Shown: positions 406 to 60,510 of the stretch, one piece after another
Position numbering within the stretch: position 1 is the first letter of the stretch
Layout of the letters: each line of letters begins with the position of its first letter
Assembly: GCA_002292285.1 (NCBI GenBank)
Contig: DBBP01000026.1
Coordinates: 30,209-94,208, forward strand
Source of the DNA: Proteobacteria bacterium UBA981
Lineage (GTDB): Bacteria; Pseudomonadota; Gammaproteobacteria; Ga0077536
Direction of reading: 5' to 3'
DNA: 64,000 bases
Notes under the pieces: model-generated
Database searches by the model: none
What the model saw: the letters and a program-made list of their open reading frames with translations, nothing else
Told to the model about the DNA's origin: nothing
Position numbers and translations under genes: made by a program

Positions 406-1032
406 ATGACGGATTCGAATTTTGTAGCCGGTAACAGCACGCACATTGATCCCGGCTGTATTGTCGGCTTGAGTTACAAAGACAACGCACCCACGACTCG
501 TTTGGGCGACAATTGCTTCATTCGCGCGGGCTCAATCATTTACGCCGGCGTGGTCATCGGTGACCATGTGCAAACGGGTCACCATGTGATGATTCGCGAG
601 AATACGAAAATCGGTAACCACGTCGTGATCGGCACTAATTCGGTGTGCGACGGCAATACAACCATCGATGCGTTCGTGAAGATAGAGTCCAATTGCTACA
701 TCTCAACGCATTGCAGCATCGGAACGCGGGTATTTCTTGGCCCCGGTGTTGTCCTGACAAACGATCGCTACCCCCTAAAACTCCGCGACACCTACAAGCC
801 GGAAGGCGTCATTCTGGAAGACGGTGTGACCTTGGGTGCGGGTGTGGTCGTATGTCCGGGCGTGACCATCGGTGCCGATAGTTTTGTCGCGGCCGGCGCT
901 GTAGTGACGCGGGATATTCCGCCACGCAGCTTCGTGAAGGGCGTGCCAGGGCAGATTTCGGCATTGCCACCTGAACTCGCAGAACGCAACATGGCGTTGT
1001 CGTGGCGCGGGTTTCTCGACCCAGATTCCTAA
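406..1032 (+). CDS. wbpD: Hexapeptide-repeat (left-handed beta-helix) sugar N-acetyltransferase, WbpD/PglD-like
   Basis: 208 aa with repeated [LIV]-G-x-x-x-x hexapeptides (IGDHVQTGHHVMI, IGNHVVIGTNSV, LGAGVVVCPGVTIGADSFV). GGAGAA RBS sits 8 nt upstream. Context is the adjacent oxidoreductase/aminotransferase and 2-epimerase. Confidence 0.75.
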   Translation: MTDSNFVAGNSTHIDPGCIVGLSYKDNAPTTRLGDNCFIRAGSIIYAGVVIGDHVQTGHHVMIRENTKIGNHVVIGTNSVCDGNTTIDAFVKIESNCYISTHCSIGTRVFLGPGVVLTNDRYPLKLRDTYKPEGVILEDGVTLGAGVVVCPGVTIGADSFVAAGAVVTRDIPPRSFVKGVPGQISALPPELAERNMALSWRGFLDPDS

Positions 1033-3188
1033 GCGGCGAAGGCTCGGCAAGAAATTTTTTTACCAGTGCAGCGTTGGATTACAGAGTATTGAAAATCGGA
1101 CTCATCGGGTGCGGAAAACAAGCACCAAAACATATTTCCGGATTGGCCAAACAAGCTGATGTTGAACTCGTCGTTTGCGACATCAACGCCGAGCGAGCGC
1201 GTGCCGTCGGCGAGAAATTCTCACTCGCATGGACCGACGACGTAGCAGGATTGCTTGCCGATGGCGACATTACTGCCGTTGACATTGCAACCCCGACTAT
1301 GTCGCATGCGCCACTGGTTCTCCAGGCGATTGAGAATGGCAAACACTTCTTCTGCGAAAAGCCACTTTGCCAGAATCTCGATGAAGCGCGGCTGATTGCG
1401 GACACCTGCGCGAAGAAAGGCCTGATCGGCATGGTCGGATATGTTTATCGTTATGCGCCAGTATTCGAAACGGGTCACGCGTTGCTACATCCAGATACGA
1501 CACGAGATCATGTGCTGGGTGAGCCGGTCTCAGCGTGGTTCCGTATCGGCGGCCGCGGTGACCACGAATTGTGGAAGCACAAGAAAGAGTCGTCCGGTGG
1601 CGCAACTTCGGAAATGCTGGTCCATATGCTTGATTTGGCCATCTGGTACTTCGGGGCAGCAAAGTCGGCTCAATTGCTCGCCCACGAACTACGGCGTCCA
1701 ATCAGACACATCGCCGGCGCTGACGTTACCGTTGACGCCGAGGATTTCGTACTGGCGCGATTCGAGATGGAGAACGGCGGATCGGTGTTTATCCAGTCTG
1801 ACTTGCTGACGCCGGCGTTTTCTCAGCACGTAGAGATGCAGTTTGAACGCGGCACATTTTTGGGATCAATCCAGGCGGACTCGCCATCGTTTGTATTCGC
1901 GACCGCGAAATGTGACGACTACGAAGCCGGCAAAACACCGCTCGAGTTTGGACCGGTCAACCTGTTTGAACGCCAAATGGGCGCTTTTTGCGAGCACGTG
2001 CGCAGCGGCACGCCGCTGTCGCGGAATTCGGTCGAAGATTCTTTAAAAGTAATGGAAGCACTCGAAATGCTTCGACAACAATGGGGTGATGCGGTGATTG
2101 GGATATCAGATACGAGTCTGACCGAGAACGAAATCGAGGCAGCTATCAAGGTCCTGCGCTCGGGCATGCTGCGCCAGGGCAAGGAGAGCGATGCGTTCGA
2201 AGAGGAGTTCGCAGAGAAAGTCGGCGCCGCTCACGCGGTTACGTGTGCCAATGGCTCAGCGGCATTGCATCTGGCCTACCTTGCCGCACTTGAGCCGGGT
2301 GACGAGGTCCTGGTTCCTGCGTTTACCTTCATCGCTACCGGCAGCATGGCCTCGATCATGGGGGCGAAACCGATTTTTTGTGATGTTGACCCGAACACAT
2401 TTTTACTCGACCTCGATGACGCAAGATCGAAGATTACTGCAAAGACGAAAGGCATCGCGCCAGTCCACCTGTTTGGCAACCCGTGCGATATAGACGCCGT
2501 GCAACAATTTGCTGCGGATCACGGCCTGAAGATCTTCTGGGATGCTGCACAGAGTCATGGGGCGACTCATCAGCAACGTGACGTCGGTAGCTTCGACGAT
2601 TTCGTCTGTTATTCGTTTTACCCTTCCAAGAATATGTTTGTCGGCGAAGGCGGCATGGTGTGTACGAATAATGCCGAGTACGAGAACAAGCTGCGTTACT
2701 TACGCAGTCACGGCCAGACTGGCAAGTACCACCACACAAGCCTTGGGTTAAATTACCGACTGACTGATATGGAAGCGGCCATCGGTCGGGAGCAGCTAAA
2801 ACGACTGGACAGCATGCTGGCGAGTCGGCGGCGTAACGCGCAACGGATGTGCGCGGGGCTCGATGGCATCGATGGCATCACGGCACAAACAGTCACTGCC
2901 GGCGGTGACCATGCCTGGCATCAGTTCTGTGTGTTGGTGGATAAGCGCGAATTTGGCTGCGACCGCGACGCCTTGTCCGCGCATCTTAAAACTGAAGGGG
3001 TAATGAGTGGGATTCACTATCCTCGTGGCTTGCATCAGCAGCCCATTTTTGAAGAGCTTTACGGCAAAAGCCAGCTTCCGGTAACGGAAGATTTGTCCGA
3101 GCGGATTCTCGCCCTGCCTATTCACCATAGCCTGGTTGATGCAGATATTGACGGGGTCCTTGCGGCGATTGCCAAGATCGCGTCCTAG
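1002..3188 (+). CDS. Fused bifunctional enzyme: N-terminal Gfo/Idh/MocA NAD-dependent sugar-nucleotide 3-dehydrogenase (WbpB/WlbA-like) plus C-terminal DegT/DnrJ/EryC1 PLP aminotransferase (WbpE/WlbC-like)
   Basis: Single uninterrupted 728-aa ORF. Residues about 30-350 carry a Rossmann motif (KIGLIGCGKQA) and Gfo/Idh/MocA features. Residues about 360-728 carry DegT motifs (GKESDAFEEEFAEKVGAAHAVTCANGSAALHLA, PLP-lysine region SFYPSKNMFVGEGG). The ATG at 1002 overlaps the upstream gene by 31 nt; an in-frame TTG at 1089 (L-KIGLIGCG) is an alternative start. Confidence 0.8.
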   Translation: MARVSRPRFLSGEGSARNFFTSAALDYRVLKIGLIGCGKQAPKHISGLAKQADVELVVCDINAERARAVGEKFSLAWTDDVAGLLADGDITAVDIATPTMSHAPLVLQAIENGKHFFCEKPLCQNLDEARLIADTCAKKGLIGMVGYVYRYAPVFETGHALLHPDTTRDHVLGEPVSAWFRIGGRGDHELWKHKKESSGGATSEMLVHMLDLAIWYFGAAKSAQLLAHELRRPIRHIAGADVTVDAEDFVLARFEMENGGSVFIQSDLLTPAFSQHVEMQFERGTFLGSIQADSPSFVFATAKCDDYEAGKTPLEFGPVNLFERQMGAFCEHVRSGTPLSRNSVEDSLKVMEALEMLRQQWGDAVIGISDTSLTENEIEAAIKVLRSGMLRQGKESDAFEEEFAEKVGAAHAVTCANGSAALHLAYLAALEPGDEVLVPAFTFIATGSMASIMGAKPIFCDVDPNTFLLDLDDARSKITAKTKGIAPVHLFGNPCDIDAVQQFAADHGLKIFWDAAQSHGATHQQRDVGSFDDFVCYSFYPSKNMFVGEGGMVCTNNAEYENKLRYLRSHGQTGKYHHTSLGLNYRLTDMEAAIGREQLKRLDSMLASRRRNAQRMCAGLDGIDGITAQTVTAGGDHAWHQFCVLVDKREFGCDRDALSAHLKTEGVMSGIHYPRGLHQQPIFEELYGKSQLPVTEDLSERILALPIHHSLVDADIDGVLAAIAKIAS

Positions 3189-3233: not shown

Positions 3234-4565
3234 TTATCCGCGTTTTCGGTTGTCGCAGATGCGAGCAAGCGCTGCGCAATAGTCGAGGCTTTCGGTCTCC
3301 CAACACAGGGCATCGGCGGCGCGGTCAAGACGCTCTCTCAGCGCAGGCTGGCCGGTCCGTTCGAGCAAAGACCGAATCGCGCTGGCAATCTCGTTCGGTT
3401 TCTGGGGATCGAAGACTTCGCCGATGCCGAACCCCGCGACGATGGCCTGCATATCCGGCGAGGCAGACACGGCTACGGGTAAGCGGGCCATAATCATTTC
3501 GAAAAAACGATTGGGTAGCGAGTAGAAATTATTCATGCTCGTATTGAGGAAAGGGATAACGCCGACATCGGCGCCGGCGATATAACGGATCAGCTCGTCA
3601 GGCGGGACCGGCGACAGAAAATGGAGCCGCTCCGATAGACCGAGTCCGCGGCCTAAATCCAGCATTGCCTGTTGATACCCTGGAACGTTGCTGGACCCGA
3701 GAATCACGGCGTGGATTTCCTGACCAAGCATCGATAACGCCTGAATAAATTCCTCGACGCCTCGTCCGGGCAGGAATGAACTCATATACAGTACAACGCG
3801 ATCTGTATCCGCCAGTTTGGCGCTCCCGCGTAAACTCGACTCTGAAAATCTTTGTTCGTGCCAGCGGCAATTGCGCACGACAACTGGCGTGGCTATCGCA
3901 TATCGCTTAACCATCCATTGCTGCATCGACGGACCAATCGAGAAACTCAAATCAGCGCGGCGGATAATGCGTGCCTCGGCTGCGGACTCGAAACGTCGCA
4001 GCGTTCGCTGCAGGGGGGTGTTGTGGAAAGTAGACCGGTCATCAACAAACTCAACGGCGTCATACACAAGCAGCGCATTGGATATTCTGGAGAGACTTCT
4101 GGCGCCCCGCAGAGCGGGGGCATCGTGGGCCTGAATCACCTCGAATCGGTGTTGCGCGAGTGCTCGCGTGCTCGCGCGAGCGAAGAGCATGCTGTTAATT
4201 GTGTGACCAAAAGGCAAAACGATAAATCGGGCGGCGCGCACGATGGCGCTGGATATCGATGCCAGCAGACGAGGGCTATTGTCCTTCGAAGGCGCGGCGA
4301 CGAATGCAGCTGATTCGGACTCAGTGGGCGACGGCCGTTTTCGGCGTAGCAGTCGCTCGAGGCGCCGCAGTGGGCGAGGCAGCGTGACCTGCACATACTC
4401 GATGTCCTCAAGACCACGTGAATCCGGACGTTCCAGGGCCGCGATTGTTACCCGCCATCCTGACGCTTGCAGGCTCAAGGCTTGCCGAGACACGCGGGTG
4501 TTCCAGCGAAGATTTTTGGCCGCCAGCAGACAGATTCGTTGGTGGGTTTTAGGAGTCGATTTCAT
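3234..4565 (-). CDS. Glycosyltransferase family 1 (GT4-type, GT-B fold)
   Basis: 443 aa. C-terminal domain has the typical GT1 pattern (...VILGSSNVPGYQQAML..., ...ADVGVIPFLNTSMNNFYSLPNRFFEMIMARLPVAVS...). Confidence 0.8.
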   Translation of the reverse strand: MKSTPKTHQRICLLAAKNLRWNTRVSRQALSLQASGWRVTIAALERPDSRGLEDIEYVQVTLPRPLRRLERLLRRKRPSPTESESAAFVAAPSKDNSPRLLASISSAIVRAARFIVLPFGHTINSMLFARASTRALAQHRFEVIQAHDAPALRGARSLSRISNALLVYDAVEFVDDRSTFHNTPLQRTLRRFESAAEARIIRRADLSFSIGPSMQQWMVKRYAIATPVVVRNCRWHEQRFSESSLRGSAKLADTDRVVLYMSSFLPGRGVEEFIQALSMLGQEIHAVILGSSNVPGYQQAMLDLGRGLGLSERLHFLSPVPPDELIRYIAGADVGVIPFLNTSMNNFYSLPNRFFEMIMARLPVAVSASPDMQAIVAGFGIGEVFDPQKPNEIASAIRSLLERTGQPALRERLDRAADALCWETESLDYCAALARICDNRKRG

Positions 4566-4780
4566 TCACTGGGAATTGGTGCCGCTGCACTGGCCAGCGT
4601 CCGCTACGCGGCAATGGTGGGATAACATGGCGGCCATTCTAACGCTAGAATATGGCCTCCGCAGGTACCTGATTACGGCTGTGCCCGCGGGCACTGTATC
4701 GAAACGCAACGGCTATTCGTACCCGATGCCATTTTGCATCGTCGAGGCAAATCAACATGCCCAGCGACCTTTAGATTTCG

Positions 4781-6160
4781 ATGACAGCTGACCAACCCAG
4801 CCCCTTGCGCGTATTGATGGCGCCGCAAAATTTCGCCGATCAGCCGATGGCGCTGGTCCGCGCATTACGCAAGAAGGGATTCGATGCCCATCAGATCCAT
4901 TACACGGCACATGGGGTTCATCCACTCGGTTACGCGCTCGATCGTGCCATCGAGATTGAGGATCTGGATATCAGGAAACAACTTGAGGTGCTGGAGCAGT
5001 GCCTGGAGGAAGGTTTCGATATTTACCATTTCTGGCAGCGTTCGTTACTCCATGACCGACCGCTACGTGGGTTGACCGGGCTGGACCTGCCGTTGATTAA
5101 GGCGCGCGACGCGAGCATATTTCACCGCTTCACAGGCGCAGACTTGCGCATGTCGGAGAAGGACCGCAGCTTTAACAAATTCAGCCCTTACCATTACGGA
5201 TACACGAATCCGTTCGACGAGAAAAGACAAGCAGCCTATCTCGACTTCCTTAAGGACTACGTTGAGACGTTTTTCGTACAGGACCCCGAGATGGCTCAAT
5301 TCTTCCCGGACGCCAGAATTCTTCCACGTGGCCTTGAACTGGACAATTGGCAGCCGATCGGAATCCAAGCATCCGAGCGCCCTTTAATCGTACACGCGCC
5401 CAGCAATCCGTTGGTCAAGGGGTCCCGATTTATCATGGAGGCTGTCGAGCAGCTTCAGCGCGAAAATCTCAGTTTTGAATTCAAACAACTTGACCGTGTG
5501 CCTCACGAGCAAGCGCGTGAGTGGTACGAGAAAGCAGACATCATCGTCGACCAGATTCTCATCGGGGCTACTGGCGTTTTAACACTCGAAGCCTGGGCTC
5601 TCGCCAAGCCCTGTGTGACTTTTTTACGTGAAGACTTGTTCCAGTCGTTTTATCAGACGTCTGATCTGCCGGTTGCGAATGCGACACCAGACACAATCAC
5701 GACAGTATTGCGAAACTTGATAAAGGATTTCGAATGGCGTGAGGACCTCGCGCGACGAGGCCGTGAAACGGTGGAGAAGTTCCACAACATTAACGATATT
5801 GCCGACCAGTATGCTTCGATATGTGAGCAGGCGCGTATCGGTCGCACCCTATCGAAGCAGGACACCGCCGATGTGCGATTTTTACGGCAGGGAATTGCGT
5901 CTGGCATTGACGACAAACCCGCGCGTTTGAGTTTCGAATTGGGGATGGCGCGCCAGCATCCGAAATTGGCCGCTCTGGGTGGCAGATACTTCAGTCTGCA
6001 ACAACAGTTCTTCGCGGTGTTGTTGCGAATGCAGGTTCGATTGATTCGCACGGTCATTGTCGCCGCTATCTGGCTGGCAGGGCGCGTTAGAGCCGTATTG
6101 GGAAAGGATCGTACGCAGGCCGAGGCGGCGGGCACAGGCAGGAAAAACGACAATCAGTAG
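4781..6160 (+). CDS. GT-B-like putative glycosyltransferase of unassigned family (paralog A of 12482..13741)
   Basis: 459 aa. Shares blocks with the ORF at 12482..13741: VLMAPQNF/VLMAPKNY, YDIYHFW, LIKAR, RFTG.D.R, FVQDPE..QF.P.A...PR.L.L.W, VVHA.SN...KG.RFI..AV..LQ.E.L.F. The C-terminal half resembles a GT1 C-domain (ADIIVDQILIGATGVLTLEAWALAKPCV). Confidence 0.6.
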   Translation: MTADQPSPLRVLMAPQNFADQPMALVRALRKKGFDAHQIHYTAHGVHPLGYALDRAIEIEDLDIRKQLEVLEQCLEEGFDIYHFWQRSLLHDRPLRGLTGLDLPLIKARDASIFHRFTGADLRMSEKDRSFNKFSPYHYGYTNPFDEKRQAAYLDFLKDYVETFFVQDPEMAQFFPDARILPRGLELDNWQPIGIQASERPLIVHAPSNPLVKGSRFIMEAVEQLQRENLSFEFKQLDRVPHEQAREWYEKADIIVDQILIGATGVLTLEAWALAKPCVTFLREDLFQSFYQTSDLPVANATPDTITTVLRNLIKDFEWREDLARRGRETVEKFHNINDIADQYASICEQARIGRTLSKQDTADVRFLRQGIASGIDDKPARLSFELGMARQHPKLAALGGRYFSLQQQFFAVLLRMQVRLIRTVIVAAIWLAGRVRAVLGKDRTQAEAAGTGRKNDNQ

Positions 6161-6264: not shown

Positions 6265-7428
6265 ATGAGCACCACAAATCCGAACGAAACACCGCACGAC
6301 AAAGATGGGCTGTATCGGCCAGATCTCAACCCGTGTATCGCAGTGATCGTTGGGACGCGCCCCGGCATCGTGATGCTCGGTCCGGTAATCAAGGAGTTGG
6401 AGCGACGCGCTATCGACCATTTCGTGATTCACACCGGGCAGCACTATTCCCCGAACATGGATGCACAGTTTTTCGCCGATATCGCGTTAAGCGCACCGCA
6501 GTATCGGATTGATGGCACCGCCGCGCACACCACGCACGGTGCGCAGACTGCGCATATGCTGAGTGGAATTGAGGACATTTTGCTGCAAGCCCGGCCGCGC
6601 ATGGTATTGGTCGGCGGAGATGCGAACAGCAATCTGGCCGGCGCCCTGGCCGCGCGTAAACTGGGCATGACTCTGGGGCACGTTGAAGCCGGCGAACGGA
6701 GCTTCGACTGGTCTATGCCCGAAGAGCACAACCGCCGAATGATTGACCACATTTCGGACTACCTTTTCGTGACCGGCGAGAATGCCGTCGGCAACCTTGA
6801 GCGTGAGGGCGTTCAGGGCGCTATTGTCCGGAGCGGTAATCCGATCGTCGACGCCTCTCGCGAGTTTTCCCGACTGGCGCTGGCCAGACCGAACATTGAA
6901 GAACATTTAGGGGTCGCGGACCGTCGCTACGCGATACTGACGATGCATCGTCAGGAGAACGTGGATAACCCGGAGCGGTTACAGGGCGCTCTGCAGGGCG
7001 TATCGGACGCTGCGGTAGCGCTCGGGATACCGACGCTTTTTTTCGTGCATCCGCGAACGCAAAAGCGCCTCGAGGAGTTTAGTTTGCTCGACTGGCTGCA
7101 CGATTGTCCGGGCATTGAATTGAGAGAACCGGCCGGCTATCTGGATTTTCTTGCCTATGTGGCGCGATCTGCTCTCATATTCACGGATTCCGGCGGCGTC
7201 CAGCAAGAAGCGTGCATCCATGGAATTAATTGCGTTACTTTGCGCGATAACACGGAGTGGGTGGAAACAATTGATATCGGGGCTAACCGCCTGGCCGGAT
7301 GTGAACCGATGGCGATCGTCGATGCGGCAAAGGATGCCAGTGCCACGACCTGCAAATGGGAGGTTCCGTTCGGAGACGGGCACGCGGCAGCACGCATTGT
7401 CGATTGCGCCGTCGAAGTTCTTAAGTAG
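6265..7428 (+). CDS. wbpI: UDP-N-acetylglucosamine (or UDP-diNAc-uronate) 2-epimerase, WecB/WbpI family
   Basis: 387 aa. N-terminal VIVGTRPGIVMLGPVI (GTRPE-like motif), HVEAGERSFD (HVEAG.RS motif), and GG...NSNLAGALAA as in non-hydrolysing 2-epimerases. Confidence 0.85.
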   Translation: MSTTNPNETPHDKDGLYRPDLNPCIAVIVGTRPGIVMLGPVIKELERRAIDHFVIHTGQHYSPNMDAQFFADIALSAPQYRIDGTAAHTTHGAQTAHMLSGIEDILLQARPRMVLVGGDANSNLAGALAARKLGMTLGHVEAGERSFDWSMPEEHNRRMIDHISDYLFVTGENAVGNLEREGVQGAIVRSGNPIVDASREFSRLALARPNIEEHLGVADRRYAILTMHRQENVDNPERLQGALQGVSDAAVALGIPTLFFVHPRTQKRLEEFSLLDWLHDCPGIELREPAGYLDFLAYVARSALIFTDSGGVQQEACIHGINCVTLRDNTEWVETIDIGANRLAGCEPMAIVDAAKDASATTCKWEVPFGDGHAAARIVDCAVEVLK

Positions 7429-7462: not shown

Positions 7463-9352
7463 TCATTTTCCCTTCGCGCTCTTCTCCGGAGCCTCATAGC
7501 GCCGTCTGCCATCGCGCCAGTCACCGTGACATATGGCACGAATAAAATCGCCCGCAGCCGAGTTCACTGTTTTCATATCTACAGCGCATACGATCTGCTT
7601 GCCGTCACTAACAAAAAGGTCGCGAGCCGGAGACTTAGCCAGCGTTTTATCGAGGGAATCCGAAACAATACATATAGCGCTCGTCGGGAACAGCTGGCGT
7701 ATCGCTGCGATACCGGTCGCCGACAGCTCGTAGACATACGCGCCTTCGAGTAGCAGCAGGGCAGGGGGGCGTCGGGCGTGCTCAAGACACGCGCAGAGAT
7801 AGTTGGGCAGCTCTGCGCGCATGGCGGAATCGGTTGCGCTGTTTTCCGCCGATGTATTTTGCGAACCAGTACCTTCCATTACAGTTGTTAACCAGGAACG
7901 CTCCCGCTCGGAAAGCGCATCAACATCCACTCCGGTAGCGCGTACAAAGATCACATCTGAATTCGTATTGGTCAGCGCTGTCATCTGCCGCTCGGACGCC
8001 TCACCAGGGTCAGTCGGCCCGAGCATCGCATAAACGCCTCCTGCCAAAAAATCGCCCTGGGTCGCCTGCAATCCGCCCGTTTCAATACCCCAATTGAGAA
8101 CGGCCTGATTTCCCGATGATGGACTCGGGGGTGTCTCCACGGAGGTTTGTGAGGCTCCACGGCTGGCGGAAATATCTGGTGGTGTCTGAGAACCATCGAT
8201 TTCCCGCATGAGTTCGTGCAGCCGAATCAGGTGGGGGAGAAACCGATTCACTGAGGTCACAGTGACCATCAGGCCCTCAAGGCCGTTCATGACAAAGCGC
8301 AATCCGAAAAACAACACCAGCAGAGAGCTGTAACTAACCATGCCCTGGTGCTGTTCTGAAAACATCAGCCAGACAAGAAAGCCAATACCGACCCCGACCA
8401 TAGACGACATGACTATCCGGGATGATTCAAGAACCAGCAGGCGGTTCTCTACCAGTCGATGGAATCCGCTAATGATTTCCGCTTCATTTTCCTCATCATC
8501 CTTATTTCCCCGTGCGTTGTTGCCCGCATCAATACCCGCATCGGGGTCTTCGAACATCTCATCATCGCCGAGAAAGGCGACTTCAGGCGCACTGTTGCCG
8601 GCCAGGAAATTGTTGACCTTTTCTCGAATCGCAGCGCTTCGTTTTGGAGCCTGCACTTCGAGCATGCGGGTAGTCCGTGTCGCACGCAGATTAAGTGGAT
8701 AGGTCATGAAAGCAGCGAATAGCGCGAATAACCCGATTAACGGCAACAGGAGGGGCGCATATAAAGCGATGATTGACAGACCGATCGCGATACTTCCTAA
8801 ATGGCTGATGTTGTACAGGCCCAGCCTGACAATCACGCCGGCGAATCTGGCGTCGGTATTGAGCACTCGCAGAACAGAGTATTTGCTTGCGATTCGCACG
8901 CGCGTGCGAATGGTGTGTAACAAGGCAGTGTCCACTTCAGTCTTGCGTCCGAAGTAGGCGCCGATCTCCGCGAAAAAGTAGCGATACACCCGGCTGTCCA
9001 GCCGAATCGCAATCGAGCGACTTGCATAGTTCAGGGCACCGCCAAGGAAAAACAGAACCACGAATACGGCAATGACCAGGTTTGGGTTGGGTGCAGCCAG
9101 CTCGATTCCAAGCCGGTCGATTCCCGGAAAGCTCGTGAGACGTCCGCTAGTTTGCAGCTGGCCGACCGCACCAACGATTATCCCGAAAGAGAAGCCCTGG
9201 CAGGCAATACTCGACGCTGTCGATATCGACGACAGGAATATGCGCCACGCGAATTGTTTCAGTGCTATTGAGAACAGCCAGCCAAGTAAAGACACATAGA
9301 CTTTGCCGCGAAAGCGCGCATTGTCGATGATGGTGCGAAGGCGTCTAAACAT
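7463..9352 (-). CDS. ABC exporter-like protein (type-I exporter TMD plus degenerate, probably non-catalytic NBD)
   Basis: 629 aa with about 6 TM helices followed by an NBD-like region. Walker A reads GPTDPGEAS (no Lys). The signature LSGGQ is not recognisable. Walker B reads LLLLEGAY (no Asp-Glu). The H-loop reads IVSDSL (no His). An acidic low-complexity insert (DDEMFEDPDAGIDAGNNARGNKDDEENEAE) lies in a cytoplasmic loop. Confidence 0.7.
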   Translation of the reverse strand: MFRRLRTIIDNARFRGKVYVSLLGWLFSIALKQFAWRIFLSSISTASSIACQGFSFGIIVGAVGQLQTSGRLTSFPGIDRLGIELAAPNPNLVIAVFVVLFFLGGALNYASRSIAIRLDSRVYRYFFAEIGAYFGRKTEVDTALLHTIRTRVRIASKYSVLRVLNTDARFAGVIVRLGLYNISHLGSIAIGLSIIALYAPLLLPLIGLFALFAAFMTYPLNLRATRTTRMLEVQAPKRSAAIREKVNNFLAGNSAPEVAFLGDDEMFEDPDAGIDAGNNARGNKDDEENEAEIISGFHRLVENRLLVLESSRIVMSSMVGVGIGFLVWLMFSEQHQGMVSYSSLLVLFFGLRFVMNGLEGLMVTVTSVNRFLPHLIRLHELMREIDGSQTPPDISASRGASQTSVETPPSPSSGNQAVLNWGIETGGLQATQGDFLAGGVYAMLGPTDPGEASERQMTALTNTNSDVIFVRATGVDVDALSERERSWLTTVMEGTGSQNTSAENSATDSAMRAELPNYLCACLEHARRPPALLLLEGAYVYELSATGIAAIRQLFPTSAICIVSDSLDKTLAKSPARDLFVSDGKQIVCAVDMKTVNSAAGDFIRAICHGDWRDGRRRYEAPEKSAKGK

Positions 9353-11203: not shown

Positions 11204-11492
11204 CGATGGACGCGCCCTACCTTCCCGATTGCTGTTGAAAAAAGTGACAAATGACAGGCTGATAATCTGCGGCGCAACTATTCGGACAATTTAACTCACG
11301 ATAGGTAGCGGCAGAGTGGCGCTGCGACATCGGAGGGCGTTTTGACGCTGCCAATTTTCGCCGAACTACGACCGAGCAGGCTCAGAATTTCGGCCACTGT
11401 TGTCCGTAGATTACAGCGCATCGAGGCCACTACCGCCCGTCGCATTGCAACAATAGCGAACGGTATAGTCCACAGCTGCGGATTGCCCTGGG

Positions 11493-12333
11493 TCATGATG
11501 CCAGCGGTAGAAATCGGTTTCTGGAAGCTCCCGCGGTCCCAACCAGCATTGTGCAGGGCGGCCGACTTCGAAATGCCCTCGGTGTGACTTCGACGGTTGG
11601 GTCTATCAACCGCAAAGTAAACGCGAGTCTGTTTGGCACTTCGGTAGAGCGAAGGCCCGGCAGCGCATGACTTGAGCCGTGGATTAGTAGCGGATGGAAA
11701 ATGAAAAACTCCCCGGGGCTGCATAACCAAACGAGAAACAGTGTCCGTGGTTGCGCCTGCAAACCTCGTGTTTCCTCGTCCAGCGAGGAGCTTTTTCGTC
11801 AGGCCAAAACGACTTCGCAATTCCGAGTAATCGAGCAGGTGAGATCCGGGAATGACCACAGCACAATTCTCGGCCGGTGCTGCGGACACAGCAACCTGAA
11901 CTGAAATCTGGTGCTCGTCGGGATTCGCGTGGGTGAGGACCTTCCGATAAGTGTCTCTGTGCAACGGTAAATTCGGAACGCCCGAGAATATTGCCGTTCG
12001 CCAAATCGAGATGTTCGGACCAAGGAGGGATTGGCACGTCGTAATGAGCGCGGACGAACGACATATTGCTGCCGCAACAGGCGAATCCAAATGCGGGTTT
12101 AGCGACCCGGGAATTTCTCCGCGGCGAAAGGATTCTTCAAATCTGGCAGTCACAGATTGGTCAATCCCAGGCAGGGGGCCGGCATACCCGAATTCAGCAA
12201 ATGAAGTAACAACGTCGTCTTCCACGATAGGGACCTCTGAGCAACGAAATGGAACCGACCGATCGGCGTGATAACGTTTGAAACGGATTTCCCTGCCGAC
12301 CGTTCGAGCAGTGGACCTGAGACCGGGAATCAC
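11493..12333 (-). pseudogene. Phytanoyl-CoA dioxygenase (PhyH)-family Fe(II)/2-oxoglutarate oxygenase, disrupted by frameshift(s)
   Basis: The frame starting at 12333 encodes a PhyH-like N-half with the HxD motif (PLHRDTY) and AVVIPGSHLL. The C-terminal motif GEFFIFHPLLIHGSSHALPGLRSTEVPNR (Gxxx[FI]FHxxxxHxSxxNxS...R) lies in a different frame (ORF 11493..11762). A third frame also carries pieces around 11684..12064. Confidence 0.5.
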
Positions 12334-12481: not shown

Positions 12482-13741
12482 TTATGGAATGAGTGCTCGT
12501 TTGAACAGGTGTTCGCCTAGTCGGGCTTTTCTGAATTCGTATCTATTTTGAGTTTCAATTCGCGGTTCTCTTTGGCGACTGTTTTGAGTTCGCGGCGTAG
12601 GTAGTTGACCGTTTGTAACGTACTTCTGTGTTGCTGGATTTGTTCGGCGAGGTAGTCGAAATCGCCGAAACCAGGGGCCGTCGGTCCGCTGCGGTCCGCT
12701 GCGGTCCGCGACCTCGTGATAGACCTTGAGCAATTGTTCGGCAACGTTTTTCACGTCGAAGTGCGTTTCGATGAAATGTCGCCCTTGTATCGACAGTTCC
12801 TTTCGGTGCTCCAAGTCTGTAATAAGTAAGCGGAGCTTGTCCTTGATATTGTCCGGATTGACATTTTCTACGGGTACGTTTCCGTAGGCGGGCTTGTACA
12901 AATCGTCACGAATGTAATTCATTGTCGCTTTGCCGAGCGCCATGCATTCCATCGCAAATACGGTCAGACAGCCCTGGTGGAGGTTGTCAATGCAAATGTC
13001 GGCGCCTTTATAGATTTTAATCGCGTCCGAATGCATAAGATTGCTCACCTTTGTGTACCTGAACTTCAGTCCCTCATCTTGCAGTTCGGCGACGGCCTGT
13101 TCGATGAACCGCGTTCCCTTCAACATGTCGTTCGTAGAGGCGTGTACCACCACCGGATGTTTATCATTTTGAAGTCCAACATTCGGCCAATCTTCGAGTT
13201 TCAGGCATCGGGGTACGACGGTGGCTTCAGGAATGAACTGTTGAAGTTCAGGATCTTGAACGACGAATTGGTCAACGTGAGCACGCAAATATTCCACGTA
13301 CCGTCGGAGATCCGTTTCATCGTATGGTGACTCGTACCCATAGTTGTAGAAGCTGTAGGGATTCACCTCTTTATCCAGCGATGGGTAGCGGATGTCGTTG
13401 CCGGTGAACCGATAGATGACCTTCTTCCCGCGTGCTTTAATTAGCGCGATGTCCATGCCCATGAACATCTCATAGGGTCGACCGACGAAGAACATCGAGC
13501 GGTTCCAGAAATGGTAAATGTCATAGTTTTCAGCCAGCGAATCCTGCAGGGCTTTGAGTTGCCCTTCGATGACGTGAGCGGGATCCAGATTTACGGTCTT
13601 GTGTGACCGATAGCCCATCGAAGCGCTCGCATCGGTACTAACGTATTCAAGTTGGTCGACATCTTGTCCCATGGCGCGTAGCCGTTCGCCAAGCAAGTAG
13701 ACTTGGCCGGAATAGTTCTTGGGTGCCATGAGTACTTTCAT
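12482..13741 (-). CDS. GT-B-like putative glycosyltransferase of unassigned family (paralog B of 4781..6160); 3' end disturbed by a 10-bp tandem repeat
   Basis: 419 aa sharing the motif blocks listed for 4781..6160. The last about 70 residues look like out-of-frame translation (Arg/Pro-rich). An overlapping frame (12517..12744) encodes a protein-like coiled-coil tail. GC is lower than in neighbouring genes. Confidence 0.6.
   Translation of the reverse strand: MKVLMAPKNYSGQVYLLGERLRAMGQDVDQLEYVSTDASASMGYRSHKTVNLDPAHVIEGQLKALQDSLAENYDIYHFWNRSMFFVGRPYEMFMGMDIALIKARGKKVIYRFTGNDIRYPSLDKEVNPYSFYNYGYESPYDETDLRRYVEYLRAHVDQFVVQDPELQQFIPEATVVPRCLKLEDWPNVGLQNDKHPVVVHASTNDMLKGTRFIEQAVAELQDEGLKFRYTKVSNLMHSDAIKIYKGADICIDNLHQGCLTVFAMECMALGKATMNYIRDDLYKPAYGNVPVENVNPDNIKDKLRLLITDLEHRKELSIQGRHFIETHFDVKNVAEQLLKVYHEVADRSGPQRTDGPWFRRFRLPRRTNPATQKYVTNGQLPTPRTQNSRQREPRIETQNRYEFRKARLGEHLFKRALIP
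12683..12712. repeat. Direct tandem repeat, 10-bp unit GGTCCGCTGC x2 plus degenerate third copy GGTCCGCGAC
   Basis: Seen directly at 12683-12712. Each 10-bp unit shifts the reading frame by +1. Confidence 0.85.
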
Positions 13742-14040: not shown

Positions 14041-16212
14041 TTATTTCAGATGATCCTCCGTGCCACTCTGCCATCCGAGAGCGGTCGCTATTTGATCCGT
14101 CACAAGCTGCGCAGTGTAAGGGGCGAGATGATCATCGTCGGTGTAGAAAAGCCGGCTTTTATCGTGGGTGTAGCACCGCTGAGTCGTCTCTAAACACAAA
14201 AGTTGGTCCGGAAAAACTCTGTGCAGGCGAGGATGTTCGCCGACGCCATCCAGAATCTGTGAACTTAGTTTCGAGCGCTGCTTGAAGACGGGATAACTCG
14301 TCGTGATCTCCAGCTCTTTGAACGCGCGTAATTGTTGATACTTTGCGTGCTGGTCCAGCTCGCCTTTAACCAGGTTCGGGACGTGCCAACCCACTTCTGG
14401 GATGGGATAGACGATGACGACGGTATGTCCGAGGTCTAGCCACTCTCGGATCATGCCGTGAATTTTCGCGACTACGGTGTCGCCCGGGGTTGCGAATTCG
14501 TCGAGCCGTAAAGACGGTTTAACGTCTTGAGCGGGTTCCAATCCACCCTCACGATTATCGAAGCGAGATCCATTCAAAATTAGCGGGAAGCGGCCTGAAA
14601 GCACGATGGTCGAGGGTTCCTGAGCCGCTAGAAAATCTTTCAAGTCCTGCGTTCGAGCGCGGCATTTAGTATTGTCCTTGCCACCATCCGATCGAATTGT
14701 GCCATAGACAGGCAGGCAAGCGTTGCTGGTTAATTGAGCGTAGTTCGCCCGATTCGCTCGAGCGGCATCCAGCAAGCTCACTGCAAGCGTGCGTGCGTGA
14801 CTATCGCCAACAAGAATCAGAGTCGTCGAGGCGGCCGAGGTCTCGAATCTACAATGCGAATCGATGGCTTGCTTTCGACAAGCCGTTCCATCCTGAACGA
14901 CGTAGCGAGGGCGTGCGCGTTCATACAAGTCAACTAAGACCCCCAGTCGGCTCGGGATCCCATCGTAGTAGTAGATGCCCCCATATGCTGCCAAAAGAGT
15001 TAGAAATGCGGCTAGCGAATAACTGTAGAAATTTCGTCGACAAATTCTGTGGGATTGCCGTGCGGGTCTTTCAATCAGAAAGAAGGATAGCCCTGACAAT
15101 ACGAACGCTATTCCGATACATGCAAGCATCTCGCCCTGGGTCGGCGCCTGGCTTTTCATCCGCGCGAAAGCGAAGAGCGGAAAATGCCACAAATACAGAG
15201 CATATGAGATGAGACCGATCGCGACGAATAGCCGCGTAGACAGAACGTTAGTTATCAGTTCGCCGGGTTTCATAAACCAAATCAACAGCGCGGTGCCGAT
15301 GATCGGAAAGCAAGTTATATAGGAAGGGTGATTTATCGTGTCGTCAAAGAAAATGACTGTGCCCAGGACGAGCGATAGCCCAAGCGCAGGCATGGTCGCA
15401 TCGAGAATTGAATGGCTCAGGCGACCGCGGCCATACGTCAGCTTTGCAAGAAGCGACCCGGTTAACAGTTCCCATGCCCGGGTCGGAAAAAGGAAAAAAG
15501 CAAAGGCCGGCGATTCGTCGCTAGTGTGGTGCGCGAATTGTAACGATATGAGAAGACCGACGATCATTACAGCGCTGATATGAGATTTTAGGAATCGCCA
15601 AAAAAGCACGAGGGCGAGTGGGAATAGCAAGTAAAACTGCTCCTCCACAGACAAGCTCCAGGTATGCAGGAGTGGCTTTAGTGCGCTCGGTGCGGCTGTG
15701 TAACTATCTTCCTGCCAGAACCATACGTTCGAACCGAAAAACAAAGCAGACAAACCCGAACCTGCGAATTCTTTCATCGCTTTTGGCAACATATGCATCC
15801 AGGCGAATGGTAGACAGGCAAGCATTACCGTAAAAAGAGCCGGAAGTATCCTGCGCGCCCGTCTTTCGTAGAAATGCGCGAAGGTGAAAGCTTGTTCGTC
15901 TAGTTCGTGAAGAACAACGGACGTTATGAGATATCCGGAAATAACGAAAAATATGTCCACTCCAATGAATCCGCCCGCGAACATGTCCAATGCCAGAATT
16001 GACGGCCGGGCGTGGTACAACACGACGAGCAACACTGCGATGGCTCGCAGACCATCAATTTCAGGTCGATATTTAACGGGCATCGGGTATTTCGTCGCGG
16101 CCGGATTCAGTAAATCTGGAATCATGTGCAGTGTCCATCTGCGTGAAACACTCGTCAATCTTGTACCTTTGCCGAAACGCTCCGTACATTGCTGAGAATC
16201 GGCTTTGGGCAC
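14041..16212 (-). CDS. Acyltransferase family 3 (OafA/WecH-like) membrane O-acyltransferase with C-terminal SGNH domain
   Basis: 723 aa. N-terminal motif RPEIDGLRAIAVLLVVLYH...FFVISGYLI and about 10 TM helices. C-terminal SGNH-like block (LILVGDSHARTLA). The true start is probably the internal Met at about 16125 (MIPDLL...). Confidence 0.8.
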   Translation of the reverse strand: MPKADSQQCTERFGKGTRLTSVSRRWTLHMIPDLLNPAATKYPMPVKYRPEIDGLRAIAVLLVVLYHARPSILALDMFAGGFIGVDIFFVISGYLITSVVLHELDEQAFTFAHFYERRARRILPALFTVMLACLPFAWMHMLPKAMKEFAGSGLSALFFGSNVWFWQEDSYTAAPSALKPLLHTWSLSVEEQFYLLFPLALVLFWRFLKSHISAVMIVGLLISLQFAHHTSDESPAFAFFLFPTRAWELLTGSLLAKLTYGRGRLSHSILDATMPALGLSLVLGTVIFFDDTINHPSYITCFPIIGTALLIWFMKPGELITNVLSTRLFVAIGLISYALYLWHFPLFAFARMKSQAPTQGEMLACIGIAFVLSGLSFFLIERPARQSHRICRRNFYSYSLAAFLTLLAAYGGIYYYDGIPSRLGVLVDLYERARPRYVVQDGTACRKQAIDSHCRFETSAASTTLILVGDSHARTLAVSLLDAARANRANYAQLTSNACLPVYGTIRSDGGKDNTKCRARTQDLKDFLAAQEPSTIVLSGRFPLILNGSRFDNREGGLEPAQDVKPSLRLDEFATPGDTVVAKIHGMIREWLDLGHTVVIVYPIPEVGWHVPNLVKGELDQHAKYQQLRAFKELEITTSYPVFKQRSKLSSQILDGVGEHPRLHRVFPDQLLCLETTQRCYTHDKSRLFYTDDDHLAPYTAQLVTDQIATALGWQSGTEDHLK

Positions 16213-16531: not shown

Positions 16532-17596
16532 ATGGACCTAACGCGAAACGAACAGATAATTGTTTCTGATCCCGCGACTAACGATGGATTCACGGGTTGG
16601 AATGAATTTGTGCTCGCACAACCCGTGGTAAACCCCTTTCATCTCGCACAATGGCACGAAATCCTGAATCACGTGTTTCAGGTGCAGCCCCTTTACAGGA
16701 TGGGATGCGACGCCACCGGCCGGATTTTGGGAATCGTCCCGGCCTATTTCGCCTCAGGACTTTTCGCGACGCCGCAGGTCGCGACGTTGGATGGCGGCAT
16801 CCTTAGTGCAGATCAGCGCGTCGCCGATTCGCTCCACGCAGAGCTTTCCCTTTCGGCCGGTAATCTAGGCGCACGCCACGTCATGCTAAAAGGCGGAGCA
16901 GCAGCAACAGGCGAAGCTGTCGGCGGTAGCGTATTCAGCAAACGGATCTATCCGGTCGTCGATCTGTCCGCCGGTGTCGATTTCGTTACCCAACGACTGA
17001 ATAAGAAGATGAGGTATCAAATAAAGAAAAGTCAGGCGCTCGGGCTCGAAGCCGTGCAGGCAGACCAGGTACCCCATAGTTTCTACGCTATCTTCGCCCG
17101 TACCCAGAGAGATCTCGGTACGCCGGTGGTTTCTCGAAAATTTTTCGATTCGATGAATGCCGTACTGTCTCCACTGTTGAACTTTACCGGTCTCATGCAT
17201 CACGGGCGCCTCGTCGCGGGTCTTGTTGGAGTGAGCCTCGGTGATACTTACTACAGTCTGTACGCCGCGACAGACCGAGAATACCAGCACAACTATGCGA
17301 ACTATCTCCTCTACCTCAGGGTTATGGAATGGGCCTGCGAAAGGCAGCTCGGTAAGTTTAATATGGGCAGAAGTTCCCCCGGGACCGGCGCCTACCGTTA
17401 TAAGACCAAATGGCGTCCTGTTGATATCGAAGCGCTGTACCGCTGCGATTTTGTGACTCGACGAAACAGGCCAAAGGATTCCGCGATTCTGGAACCGGCG
17501 TCAAACTCAATCGCAGTAAAAGTCTGGAAGCGAATGCCACTGACCGTTACGAACGTTCTGGGGCCGTCGCTGAGAAGCAGGCTTCCGTTTGGCTAA
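16532..17596 (+). CDS. FemAB-family / GNAT-fold (BioF2-like) acyl- or aminoacyl-transferase-like protein
   Basis: 354 aa. The C-terminal half resembles FemAB/Acetyltransf_6 family members (…YYSLYAATDREYQHNYANYLLYLRVMEWACERQLGKFNMGRSSPGTGAYRYKTKW…). Confidence 0.6.
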   Translation: MDLTRNEQIIVSDPATNDGFTGWNEFVLAQPVVNPFHLAQWHEILNHVFQVQPLYRMGCDATGRILGIVPAYFASGLFATPQVATLDGGILSADQRVADSLHAELSLSAGNLGARHVMLKGGAAATGEAVGGSVFSKRIYPVVDLSAGVDFVTQRLNKKMRYQIKKSQALGLEAVQADQVPHSFYAIFARTQRDLGTPVVSRKFFDSMNAVLSPLLNFTGLMHHGRLVAGLVGVSLGDTYYSLYAATDREYQHNYANYLLYLRVMEWACERQLGKFNMGRSSPGTGAYRYKTKWRPVDIEALYRCDFVTRRNRPKDSAILEPASNSIAVKVWKRMPLTVTNVLGPSLRSRLPFG

Positions 17597-17851
17597 GCGA
17601 CTAGAGTGTTGCTAGCAAGGTGAACGCTTGAGCTTAGAAGCGGTGCTCGGTACTTCGAGCGCTTGTACAGATTCGGCTCCAAGGCGGTCATATATTGGAT
17701 AATCAGCGCGGCCAGCTACAGTGAGAAAGGAAAGCTATCATTCAATCTTCAGGTCTTTAGCTTGAGCGTACTTCGGCTGTTACCGCCGACGGCCACGCCA
17801 ATCCCGGTTCGGGCGATAGCTGCTGCGATTGCTGCAGACCAGCGCAGTTTG

Positions 17852-20137: not shown

Positions 20138-20181
20138 GTTTTTACTGTCGCCCCGGGCAGGACCCAGGCTACGTTTACGGC

Positions 20182-51523: not shown

Positions 51524-51535
51524 GCATCTGAATCG

Positions 51536-59941: not shown

Positions 59942-60510
59942 GGTGATTCCCTTTACTGCTGCTCTTGCTGTCTTCCGAAATTCGTTTCGGCGGACTGTTA
60001 AATTGAAGAATAGCTCAGCGTGGCCAGATATCGCCAGCGTCGCGTGGGTTGGCCCGCTTTCCGCGGTAGGCCGCGGGAGCTAGCTAGGAGCAGGGTGCCT
60101 GGAACCGGGCAGATTGCCGGGATGCGGGCAAGGGCAGGGCCGACGGGCGAAAATTCGGCATGCCAGATTGCTGGTTCGATGTAACCAGGTGGGCGGATGA
60201 GAGCCGATTTTAGCCCTTTAGCCGCGGTTTCGTGCGCTCGGTACACAGCGGCAGTGGCCGGGCATGCTGCCGTTCACCTGTACGAATCGCTACAACGAGG
60301 TAAGACGCGGGCATCGAGCGCGCGGGAGTCGCTGTAAGGCCAAGAACACTTCGGACCTAGTCTTTGATGTCCAGACGGATGTCTGCCGCAGCACTTCAAC
60401 GATCATAAGCAAGCAAGGCACCGTTGTCCGAGGCTATAGCGCTGGAGGGCTGCCCCCGGGGGAGCAGGCAGTTTATTCTTGTGACTCTATGAACTCCCGG
60501 AATAAGTGAC

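What the first reader, a model, noticed from the sequence alone, without database searches (positions are those of the whole stretch)
1002..3188. Single-ORF fusion of a WbpB-type 3-dehydrogenase and a WbpE-type aminotransferase
One uninterrupted 728-aa frame joins a Gfo/Idh/MocA oxidoreductase (KIGLIGCGKQA Rossmann) to a complete DegT aminotransferase (PLP-lysine block SFYPSKN). In the UDP-ManNAc(3NAc)A pathway these are separate proteins (WbpB/WlbA and WbpE/WlbC). They are known to work as a coupled pair: the oxidoreductase regenerates NAD+ using 2-oxoglutarate released by the transaminase. A covalent fusion would be a natural Rosetta-stone confirmation of that coupling. Together with the WbpD-like acetyltransferase (406..1032) and WbpI-like 2-epimerase (6265..7428), this is the module for UDP-2,3-diacetamido-2,3-dideoxy-mannuronic acid.
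Basis: partly seen in the sequence, partly recalled or inferred. Interest (0 to 1): 0.6.

Follow-up and report, generated by a model that had tools for sequence, protein, structure and literature searches.

The report
Stop-codon SNP fuses two sugar-pathway genes
The 728-codon "fusion" is real in this sequence, but it comes from a single-base loss of the stop codon (TGA to TGG) between two neighbouring, in-frame amino-sugar genes, and other strains of the same marine bacterium and its sister species keep them as separate genes.

Summary
The ORF 1002..3188 is uninterrupted. It holds a complete Gfo/Idh/MocA oxidoreductase and a complete DegT aminotransferase with its PLP lysine. The likely start is TTG 1089, giving 699 aa.

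The join is one codon, TGG at 2082-2084. Near-identical contigs (98.8-99.9%) from other marine samples read TGA there. In those, a 331-aa oxidoreductase ends, 9 nt follow, and a 364-aa aminotransferase starts at GTG 2094. One such contig differs from the window only at base 2084. Sister species and more distant relatives also keep two genes, so TGA is ancestral and TGG is a recent stop-loss allele. TGG occurs in at least 18 contigs from independent samples, so it is not a sequencing error.

As a Rosetta stone it is weak. Conserved oxidoreductase-aminotransferase fusions exist in other lineages in both orders, only distantly related to this one.

The oxidoreductase half is not WbpB-like by sequence or fold, so the 2-oxoglutarate-recycling argument is unsupported. 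Gene context (3-amino-sugar acetyltransferase, 2-epimerase, TviB-like 6-dehydrogenase upstream) still makes a UDP-ManNAc3NAcA-type pathway plausible.

Whether the fused protein is active is untested. Interest is modest.

The parts
406..1032 (+). Hexapeptide-repeat (LbH) N-acetyltransferase. It is the probable third enzyme of the module and would acetylate the 3-amino sugar.
   Evidence: Pfam Hexapep 6.4e-29. Best PDB hits are QdtC 3fs8 (6.5e-31) and 3mqg, 'Lipopolysaccharides biosynthesis acetyltransferase' (WlbB from memory; 1.8e-17). The same gene sits directly upstream of the oxidoreductase in all relatives.
1002..1088 (+). 5' extension of the mechanical ORF, probably not translated. It overlaps the 3' end of the acetyltransferase gene.
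   Evidence: Sister-species genes start at a GTG aligned with window TTG 1089. Database gene calls of 331 and 699 aa start here.
1089..2081 (+). Gfo/Idh/MocA NAD-dependent sugar dehydrogenase half (331 codons). It is a separate gene in the ancestral allele. Inferred function: nucleotide-sugar 3-dehydrogenase.
   Evidence: Pfam PF01408 and PF22725. The EKP motif lies at 1356-1364. The AF2 model has pLDDT 93.8 and its last helix runs to residue 329 of 331. The 120 best homologues are all standalone proteins of 309-357 aa.
2082..2084 (+). TGG (Trp) codon, the polymorphic site. Other strains and sister species have the stop codon TGA here (base 2084 G versus A).
   Evidence: Alignments A1 and A2. 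SNP table. Gene calls of 336 aa plus 364 aa with a 9-nt gap on a 125.7-kb JGI contig.
2085..2093 (+). Former 9-nt intergenic spacer GGTGATGCG, now read as Gly-Asp-Ala. With the TGA allele it forms a Shine-Dalgarno-like GAGGTGAT located 3 nt before the GTG start.
   Evidence: TGAGGT is conserved in the sister species.
2094..3188 (+). DegT/DnrJ/EryC1 PLP-dependent sugar aminotransferase half (364 codons plus TAG). GTG 2094 is its own start codon in the split allele. The PLP lysine codon is 2628-2630.
   Evidence: Pfam PF01041 at 396 bits, full length. PDB hits: 7b0d 5e-71, QdtB 1.1e-64, WbpE 4.8e-63, with the Lys aligned. Standalone proteins P0102 and P0108 start at this GTG.
6265..7428 (+). Non-hydrolysing UDP-sugar 2-epimerase (WecB/WbpI family), the probable last step of the module.
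   Evidence: TIGR00236 scores 317 bits, above its cutoff. PDB: 4neq 5.9e-94, then the Thermus UDP-GlcNAc3NAcA 2-epimerase 8sxv 8.2e-71. In sister species it follows the aminotransferase gene directly.

Best explanation
The window carries a recent stop-codon-loss allele.

Ancestrally, three genes sat in a row: a hexapeptide N-acetyltransferase, a 331-aa Gfo/Idh/MocA sugar dehydrogenase and a 364-aa DegT aminotransferase. The last two were separated only by TGA plus 9 nt and happened to be in the same frame. An A-to-G transition at base 2084 changed TGA to TGG. Ribosomes starting at TTG 1089 now read through the old spacer (Trp-Gly-Asp-Ala) into the aminotransferase and make one 699-aa two-domain polypeptide. 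This part is shown by the data.

The following steps are inferred. Both domains are intact, so the fused protein most likely still does what the two proteins did. The N half oxidises C-3 of a UDP-N-acetyl-hexosamine, probably UDP-GlcNAcA supplied by the upstream TviB-like 6-dehydrogenase, using NAD+. The C half transaminates the 3-keto sugar from glutamate through PLP on the lysine at codon 2628-2630. The upstream acetyltransferase then N-acetylates the 3-amine, and the WecB-type epimerase makes the manno form for the glycosyltransferases of this large polysaccharide cluster.

The fusion is a segregating, probably near-neutral variant in an uncultured marine gammaproteobacterium. It is not a conserved bifunctional enzyme.
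For: - The ORF is continuous and both domains are complete.
- The 90%-identity cluster of this protein contains fused forms of 699 and 728 aa and split forms of 331, 336 or 360 aa plus 364 aa.
- Junction DNA: the window and L001-L003 read CAACAATGGGGTGATGCGGTG. L004-L007 read CAACAATGAGGTGATGCGGTG.
- L007 differs from the window only at 2084 over 1416 bp. The most divergent conspecific contig, L005 (25 SNPs in 2103 bp), has TGA.
- A 125.7-kb JGI contig calls two genes with a 9-nt gap.
- Sister species at 68-70% identity keep TGA, 9 nt and GTG in frame, in an acetyltransferase, oxidoreductase, aminotransferase, epimerase operon.
- Relatives at 62-64% identity have separate, overlapping genes in different frames.
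- The 120 best homologues of the N half are all standalone.
- The fused allele is seen in at least 18 contigs from ENA, Logan and NCBI assemblies of different samples.
- TGA is a normal stop codon in this genome, ending 15 of 42 ORFs.
- Viability of such fusions in principle: conserved GFO-DegT fusions occur in other lineages in both orders.
Against: - There is no evidence that the fused protein is active.
- The effective linker is only about 4 residues between the last helix of the dehydrogenase and the first strand of the aminotransferase. This could hinder the oligomers these families normally form.
- The substrate assignment rests on gene context only. The N half has no specific similarity to WbpB or WlbA. 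The epimerase is closer to an archaeal UDP-GlcNAc 2-epimerase than to the Thermus UDP-GlcNAc3NAcA epimerase.
- Allele counts come from consensus contigs, not reads, so the true frequencies and the direction of selection are unknown.
- TGG-to-TGA reversion is also a single transition, so some TGA strains could be revertants.
Confidence: 0.8

Rival explanations
1. It is an evolved, selected bifunctional enzyme, a true Rosetta-stone fusion. Covalent linkage would channel the labile 3-keto intermediate and couple cofactor and 2-oxoglutarate recycling.
For: The fused allele is the commoner one among assembled contigs, at least 18 against about 6. It occurs in several sampling series. Independent GFO-DegT fusions exist elsewhere, so linkage can be tolerated or useful.
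Against: Conspecific strains, sister species and more distant relatives all keep two genes. Fused contigs are almost identical to each other, with 0-2 SNPs per 6-13 kb, so the allele is very young. The linker is simply the untouched old spacer, with no sign of later adaptation. The N half is not of the 2-oxoglutarate-dependent WbpB class by sequence or fold (PMC10622841).
Confidence: 0.12
2. The stop loss is a loss-of-function or hypomorphic allele. The tight fusion would disturb folding or oligomerisation and weaken independent translation of the aminotransferase. The surface polysaccharide would then lose or reduce the di-N-acetylated sugar, which could be favoured episodically, for example for phage escape.
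For: The linker is very short. The SD-like GAGGTGAT weakens to GGGGTGAT. Both alleles occur in the same sampling series, KRUG19 and SOLA22, as expected for fluctuating selection on surface glycans.
Against: Knock-outs usually arise by nonsense or frameshift mutations, and none is seen in any contig. Both domains are intact. Some natural fusions have comparably short junctions by my estimate (P0179, P0197). There are no secondary disabling mutations in 18 contigs.
Confidence: 0.18
3. It is a sequencing or assembly artefact: a miscalled base at a true stop codon.
For: A single base decides the call. The data are metagenomic consensus sequences.
Against: The same TGG is found in at least 18 contigs from different samples and different assemblers (ENA submissions, Logan, NCBI, JGI). 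TGA contigs carry other linked SNPs, so these are different strains rather than random errors.
Confidence: 0.02
4. It reflects programmed recoding. The in-frame TGA of the ancestral allele would be a regulated read-through or selenocysteine site, and TGG would merely hard-wire an existing fused isoform.
For: The TGA, 9 nt, GTG arrangement is in frame in this species and its sister species. UGA is the leakiest stop codon in bacteria (general knowledge).
Against: There is no stable structure downstream of the TGA (z = -0.42) and no Rfam hit. More distant relatives have the two genes in different frames. One in three adjacent gene pairs is in frame by chance.
Confidence: 0.03

Closest known systems
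WbpB/WbpE of Pseudomonas aeruginosa and WlbA/WlbC of Bordetella: the UDP-GlcNAcA 3-dehydrogenase plus 3-aminotransferase pair of the five-enzyme UDP-ManNAc3NAcA pathway (PMC10622841)
   Same: The two enzyme families are the same: a Gfo/Idh/MocA dehydrogenase followed by a DegT aminotransferase. The companions are also the same: an LbH N-acetyltransferase, a WecB-type 2-epimerase and a UDP-GlcNAc 6-dehydrogenase-like gene upstream. The aminotransferase half matches WbpE at E 4.8e-63 with the PLP lysine aligned.
   Different: Here the pair is read as one polypeptide in this allele. The N half is only remotely related to 3q2k (WlbA from memory; 58 bits, residues 2-205), and WbpB and Thermus WlbA are not among the best 60 PDB hits. 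JGI's own names are 'myo-inositol 2-dehydrogenase' and 'perosamine synthetase', not wbpB and wbpE. The substrate is untested.
Uncharacterised natural Gfo/Idh/MocA-DegT fusion proteins in other lineages (P0220/P0380 at 751 aa, P0252 and P0179 in the same order; P0194, P0152 and P0154 in reverse order)
   Same: The two Pfam domains lie in one protein inside polysaccharide clusters. P0194 is followed directly by a hexapeptide acetyltransferase.
   Different: Some recur unchanged: all five members of the P0220 cluster are 751 aa and P0380 is on 6 contigs, and P0194 is in 2 JGI samples. Several others are single-contig singletons. Some have longer linkers of about 20-45 aa, an estimate. They share only 25-39% identity with the window's halves, so they are independent fusions of other subfamilies. 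The window's fusion is a one-base, strain-level variant.
Other dehydrogenase-aminotransferase pairs that install an amine on a sugar carbon: GenD2/GenS2 and KanD2/KanS2 (aminoglycoside 3''), NtdC/NtdA (kanosamine), GnnA/GnnB (UDP-GlcNAc3N for lipid A). The partners and pathways are from general knowledge.
   Same: The two-step logic is the same: NAD-dependent oxidation by a GFO-family enzyme, then PLP transamination by a DegT-family enzyme. GenD2 and KanD2 are among the best fold matches of the N half. NtdA is a PDB hit of the C half.
   Different: Those enzymes are separate proteins acting on other substrates. No specific sequence relationship is shown here.
Gene fusion by loss of the stop codon between adjacent in-frame genes, a well-known general route to fused genes (general knowledge)
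   Same: The mechanism is exactly this. One substitution removes the stop and the short spacer becomes the linker.
   Different: Here both states are seen side by side in wild populations, with the ancestral state fixed by outgroups.

Membership tests
Gfo/Idh/MocA oxidoreductase family (N half) | N-terminal Rossmann NAD(P)-binding domain with a GxGxxG/A motif, plus a C-terminal alpha/beta domain | tested here: met
   PF01408 scores 85.8 bits (cutoff 24) and PF22725 scores 43.8 bits (cutoff 27). The motif GLIGCGKQA is present. The AF2 model has pLDDT 93.8, with TM 0.8-0.87 to many GFO structures.
Gfo/Idh/MocA oxidoreductase family (N half) | Conserved EKP motif and the GG...H..D catalytic block | tested here: met
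   FCEKPL lies at 1350-1367 and GGATSEMLVHMLD follows. E90, K91, P92, H179 and D182 are invariant in 37 homologues.
WbpB / Thermus WlbA class (2-oxoglutarate-dependent ping-pong UDP-GlcNAcA 3-dehydrogenase) | Specific sequence or fold similarity to WbpB or Thermus WlbA above that to other GFO enzymes | tested here: not met
   Neither is among the 60 best of 87 PDB sequence hits (so E above about 4e-7), nor among the 50 best Foldseek hits. The best matches are DgpA, levoglucosan dehydrogenase, scyllo-inositol dehydrogenase and GenD2.
WbpB / Thermus WlbA class (2-oxoglutarate-dependent ping-pong UDP-GlcNAcA 3-dehydrogenase) | Tightly bound NAD(H) re-oxidised by 2-oxoglutarate | not testable with these tools
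   Needs enzyme kinetics. The two mechanistic classes are described in PMC10622841.
B. pertussis / C. violaceum WlbA class (sequential mechanism) | Specific sequence similarity to these enzymes | tested here: inconclusive
   3q2k scores E 7.6e-15 (58 bits, residues 2-205 only) and 3q2i scores 2.8e-12. They rank 5th and 15th, behind non-WlbA enzymes. That these two entries are WlbA is from my memory; the file calls them 'oxidoreductase' and 'dehydrogenase'.
DegT/DnrJ/EryC1 sugar aminotransferases (C half) | Full-length match to the family profile | tested here: met
   PF01041 scores 396 bits, covering profile positions 3-359 of 360.
DegT/DnrJ/EryC1 sugar aminotransferases (C half) | PLP-binding lysine in the S-F-(Y/F)-P-(S/T)-K block | tested here: met
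   SFYPSKN has its Lys at codon 2628-2630. It aligns with the Lys of WbpE (FFPSKPL), QdtB (FYPAKNL) and 7b0d (FYPTKNL).
WbpE-type UDP-3-keto-GlcNAcA 3-aminotransferase | Closer to WbpE than to aminotransferases of other specificity | tested here: inconclusive
   WbpE scores 4.8e-63. 7b0d (5e-71), QdtB (1.1e-64) and 8e75 (3e-63) score the same or better. No NCBIfam equivalog cutoff is reached.
Five-enzyme UDP-ManNAc3NAcA pathway (WbpA, B, E, D, I) | All five enzyme types encoded together | tested here: met
   Four enzyme types lie in the window. The fifth, a TviB-like UDP-GlcNAc 6-dehydrogenase (510 bits against a cutoff of 592), lies about 6 kb upstream on L001, which is 100% identical to the window over 13,188 bp. 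Family types match, but substrate specificities are not shown.
Conserved bifunctional (Rosetta-stone) fusion protein | The fusion is shared by orthologues in related strains and species | tested here: not met
   Conspecific contigs L004-L007 and a JGI contig, sister species L016-L019, and relatives L008 and L009 all have two genes.

The most novel reading that the evidence does not exclude
A gene fusion caught at birth. A one-base stop-loss allele now segregates in wild coastal populations of a marine gammaproteobacterium alongside the ancestral two-gene allele. It would encode a fully active bifunctional 3-dehydrogenase/3-aminotransferase and would be rising because tethering the two active sites helps pass on the unstable 3-keto sugar. 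That would give a natural, time-resolved test of how and why Rosetta-stone fusions become fixed.
Probability: 0.2. Interest if true: 0.55.

Novelty: new variant of a known kind. Interest (0 to 1): 0.3.

Why it matters
For annotation, the lesson is practical. A striking "bifunctional" ORF in a metagenome-assembled genome can rest on one base, and checking near-identical contigs settles it quickly.

For biology, the locus gives a clean natural pair of alleles, fused and split, that differ at one nucleotide in an otherwise identical background. That pair could be used to measure what covalent linkage does to a dehydrogenase/aminotransferase couple that passes on a labile keto-sugar.

It does not add independent evidence for WbpB-WbpE coupling. 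The conserved fusions found in other lineages are better candidates for that.

Tried and rejected
- Exact-sequence look-up of P0001 found no contig. The 728-aa form P0103 did.
- DNA pattern scans across the junction, with N at the polymorphic base, found nothing in genome contigs or metagenome contigs. Those collections evidently lack this species.
- A full-length alignment for an AlphaFold model of the fused protein could not be made. MAFFT laid the aminotransferase homologues over the oxidoreductase half. Only the N half was modelled, so the geometry of the junction was not tested.
- The fold search of the N half gave only generic GFO neighbours and did not resolve substrate class.
- Recoding or selenocysteine at the TGA was rejected: no structure, no Rfam hit, and TGA is a normal stop here.
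- An alternative genetic code was rejected for the same reason.
- The primary papers on WbpB/WbpE and WlbA (PMC3050068, PMC2694220, PMC4241754) are not held. The two-class statement is taken from PMC10622841.
- A literature search for described GFO-DegT fusions found nothing relevant.
- No tRNA or other marker in the window fixes the taxonomy. A PpnN search places the organism only among uncultured Gammaproteobacteria.
Full report
**Observation**

The frame 1002..3188 (+) is open for 728 codons. Pfam places a Gfo/Idh/MocA Rossmann domain at residues 30-147, its C-terminal domain at 169-286, and a full-length DegT/DnrJ/EryC1 aminotransferase domain at 373-723. The PLP lysine of the SFYPSKN block (codon 2628-2630) aligns with the corresponding lysine of WbpE, QdtB and 7b0d.

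The likely start is TTG 1089, not GTG 1002. Sister-species genes begin at a GTG aligned with 1089. Public gene calls of 331 and 699 aa use that start.

**What the junction is**

The protein's 90%-identity cluster has 11 members. Some are fused (699 or 728 aa). Others are separate proteins of 331, 336 or 360 aa ending ...EALEMLRQQ, and of 364 aa starting (V/M)IGISDTS....

- A 125.7-kb JGI contig carries the two as adjacent genes with a 9-nt gap.
- At the DNA level, the window and three fused contigs read CAACAA TGG GGTGATGCG GTG. Four split contigs read CAACAA TGA GGTGATGCG GTG.
- Over the overlaps, the only consistent difference is base 2084, G versus A. L007 differs from the window at that base alone in 1416 bp. 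L005, the most divergent conspecific contig (25 SNPs in 2103 bp), has TGA.

The "fusion" is therefore one substitution in a stop codon between two genes that are in the same frame and 9 nt apart. With TGA, the spacer forms a Shine-Dalgarno-like GAGGTGAT 3 nt before the aminotransferase's GTG start.

**Direction of change**

- The closest other species (68-70% identity in the N half; L016-L019) have the operon acetyltransferase (206 aa), oxidoreductase (331 aa), 9 nt, aminotransferase (364 aa), 2-epimerase (375 aa). Their junction reads TGA GGTAATCCC GTG.
- Two GTDB genomes at 62-64% identity (a Gammaproteobacteria MAG and a Desulfobacterales MAG) have separate genes that overlap by 1 or 4 nt in different frames.
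- The 120 best homologues of the N half are all standalone proteins of 309-357 aa.
- The closest homologues of the C half are standalone proteins of about 400 aa.

TGA is therefore ancestral and TGG is derived.

**Is it an artefact?**

No.

- The TGG form is on at least 18 contigs from ENA, Logan and NCBI assemblies of different samples, and on JGI contigs.
- The TGA contigs carry other SNPs, so they are different strains.
- Both alleles occur within the same sampling series, KRUG19 and SOLA22. SNP 5645C is shared by a fused and a split contig from SOLA.
- Fused contigs are nearly identical to one another, with 0-2 SNPs per 6-13 kb, so the allele is young.
- TGA is an ordinary stop in this genome, ending 15 of 42 ORFs.
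- There is no RNA structure or Rfam match at the site, so recoding is not indicated.

**What the two halves are**

The C half is a typical sugar aminotransferase. Its best solved relatives are 7b0d (5e-71), QdtB (1.1e-64), 8e75 (3e-63) and WbpE (4.8e-63). No NCBIfam equivalog cutoff is reached.

The N half is a confident GFO fold (AF2 pLDDT 93.8) with the EKP and GG..H..D motifs conserved.

- Its best sequence relatives in the PDB are DgpA, 4h3v and levoglucosan dehydrogenase. Only then comes 3q2k (7.6e-15), with 3q2i at 2.8e-12. From memory, those two entries are WlbA of B. pertussis and C. violaceum.
- WbpB and Thermus WlbA do not appear among the 60 best sequence hits or the 50 best fold hits. 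The fold hits include the aminoglycoside 3''-dehydrogenases GenD2 and KanD2.
- PMC10622841 states that P. aeruginosa WbpB uses 2-oxoglutarate in a ping-pong mechanism, whereas the B. pertussis and C. violaceum enzymes work sequentially.

**Pathway context**

- The upstream acetyltransferase (406..1032) is closest to QdtC and to 3mqg, which I recall as WlbB; both N-acetylate 3-amino sugars (the substrate roles are from my own knowledge).
- The epimerase (6265..7428) passes the WecB model. It matches the Thermus UDP-GlcNAc3NAcA 2-epimerase at 8e-71, though an archaeal UDP-GlcNAc 2-epimerase scores higher at 5.9e-94.
- L001 is 100% identical to the window over 13,188 bp and extends 9 kb upstream. 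There it encodes an SDR epimerase/dehydratase, a TviB-like UDP-GlcNAc 6-dehydrogenase (510 bits), a TuaD-like UDP-glucose dehydrogenase, an MBOAT and a GT4.

A UDP-ManNAc3NAcA-type pathway is therefore plausible. It is inferred from context, not shown.

**Comparable fusions elsewhere**

A HMMER scan of 1.84 billion representatives with the 699-aa protein found mostly single-domain proteins, plus a few two-domain ones. Pfam confirmed GFO-to-DegT fusions (P0179, P0220, P0252) and DegT-to-GFO fusions (P0152, P0154, P0194). Some other two-stretch hits are DegT-DegT tandems.

- P0220/P0380 is constant at 751 aa in five cluster members. P0380 is found on six contigs and lies beside Bac_transf, Wzy and flippase genes.
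- P0194 is found in two JGI samples and is followed directly by a hexapeptide acetyltransferase.
- These proteins share only 25-39% identity with the window's halves.

Independent, stable fusions of this enzyme pair therefore already exist in public data and are better Rosetta stones. I found no paper describing them.

**Function of the fused allele**

This is untested.

- For activity: both domains are intact, natural fusions exist, the allele is common, and there are no secondary lesions.
- Against: the linker is only Trp-Gly-Asp-Ala between the last helix of the dehydrogenase (residues 315-329 of 331) and the first strand of the aminotransferase. The internal SD-like sequence is also weakened.

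I rate "still bifunctional and near neutral" at about 0.55-0.6, "hypomorph or loss of function" at about 0.2, and "selected improvement" at about 0.1-0.2.

**Verdict**

This is a strain-level stop-loss variant of a known two-enzyme pair in an uncultured marine gammaproteobacterium. It is of modest interest as a naturally segregating nascent fusion.

Noticed in passing
window 5645 (and 2084); L002, L004: SNP 5645 T>C is shared by a fused-allele contig (L002) and a split-allele contig (L004), both from the SOLA22 series. The 2084 polymorphism therefore sits on more than one background. Possible causes are recombination, recurrent mutation or reversion, or mixed-strain consensus.
   Followed up: partly
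window 3234..6160 versus L016 7006..9246: In sister species the 2-epimerase gene follows the aminotransferase directly. In the window two glycosyltransferase-like genes lie between them (3234..4565 on the minus strand, 4781..6160 on the plus strand), so the operon has been rearranged.
   Followed up: partly
window 34118..36094: An asparagine-synthase-type glutamine amidotransferase (658 aa) lies among the glycosyltransferases. From general knowledge, such enzymes amidate uronic-acid carboxylates in some O-antigen clusters. This would fit a uronic-acid-containing polymer.
   Followed up: no
window 17663..18970; 14041..16212; 16532..17596: The same cluster holds a second, divergent DegT aminotransferase (435 aa), an AT3-SGNH O-acyltransferase (723 aa) and a FemAB/GNAT-like protein. 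More than one modified amino sugar is probably made here.
   Followed up: no
window 7463..9352 (-), 11296..12333 (-), 12482..13741 (-), 23629..25515 (+): Four long ORFs (345-629 aa) inside the polysaccharide cluster have no Pfam match at E 1e-4. They may be polymerase, flippase or novel transferases.
   Followed up: no
window 19046..20293 (-) and 50756..52531 (+): Two LPG_synthase_TM-domain membrane proteins are present. One is paired with a GT2 glycosyltransferase (50756..51523) well outside the main cluster.
   Followed up: no
P0114, P0123, P0132, P0162, P0018 (not in window): Several 770-880-aa database proteins are tandem DegT-DegT double aminotransferases. This is another uncharacterised fusion architecture that turned up in the same search.
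   Followed up: partly
window 60487..61665: Two long ORFs overlap on opposite strands (292 aa on the minus strand, 384 aa on the plus strand). The plus-strand one has no Pfam hit, and it is unclear which is real.
   Followed up: no
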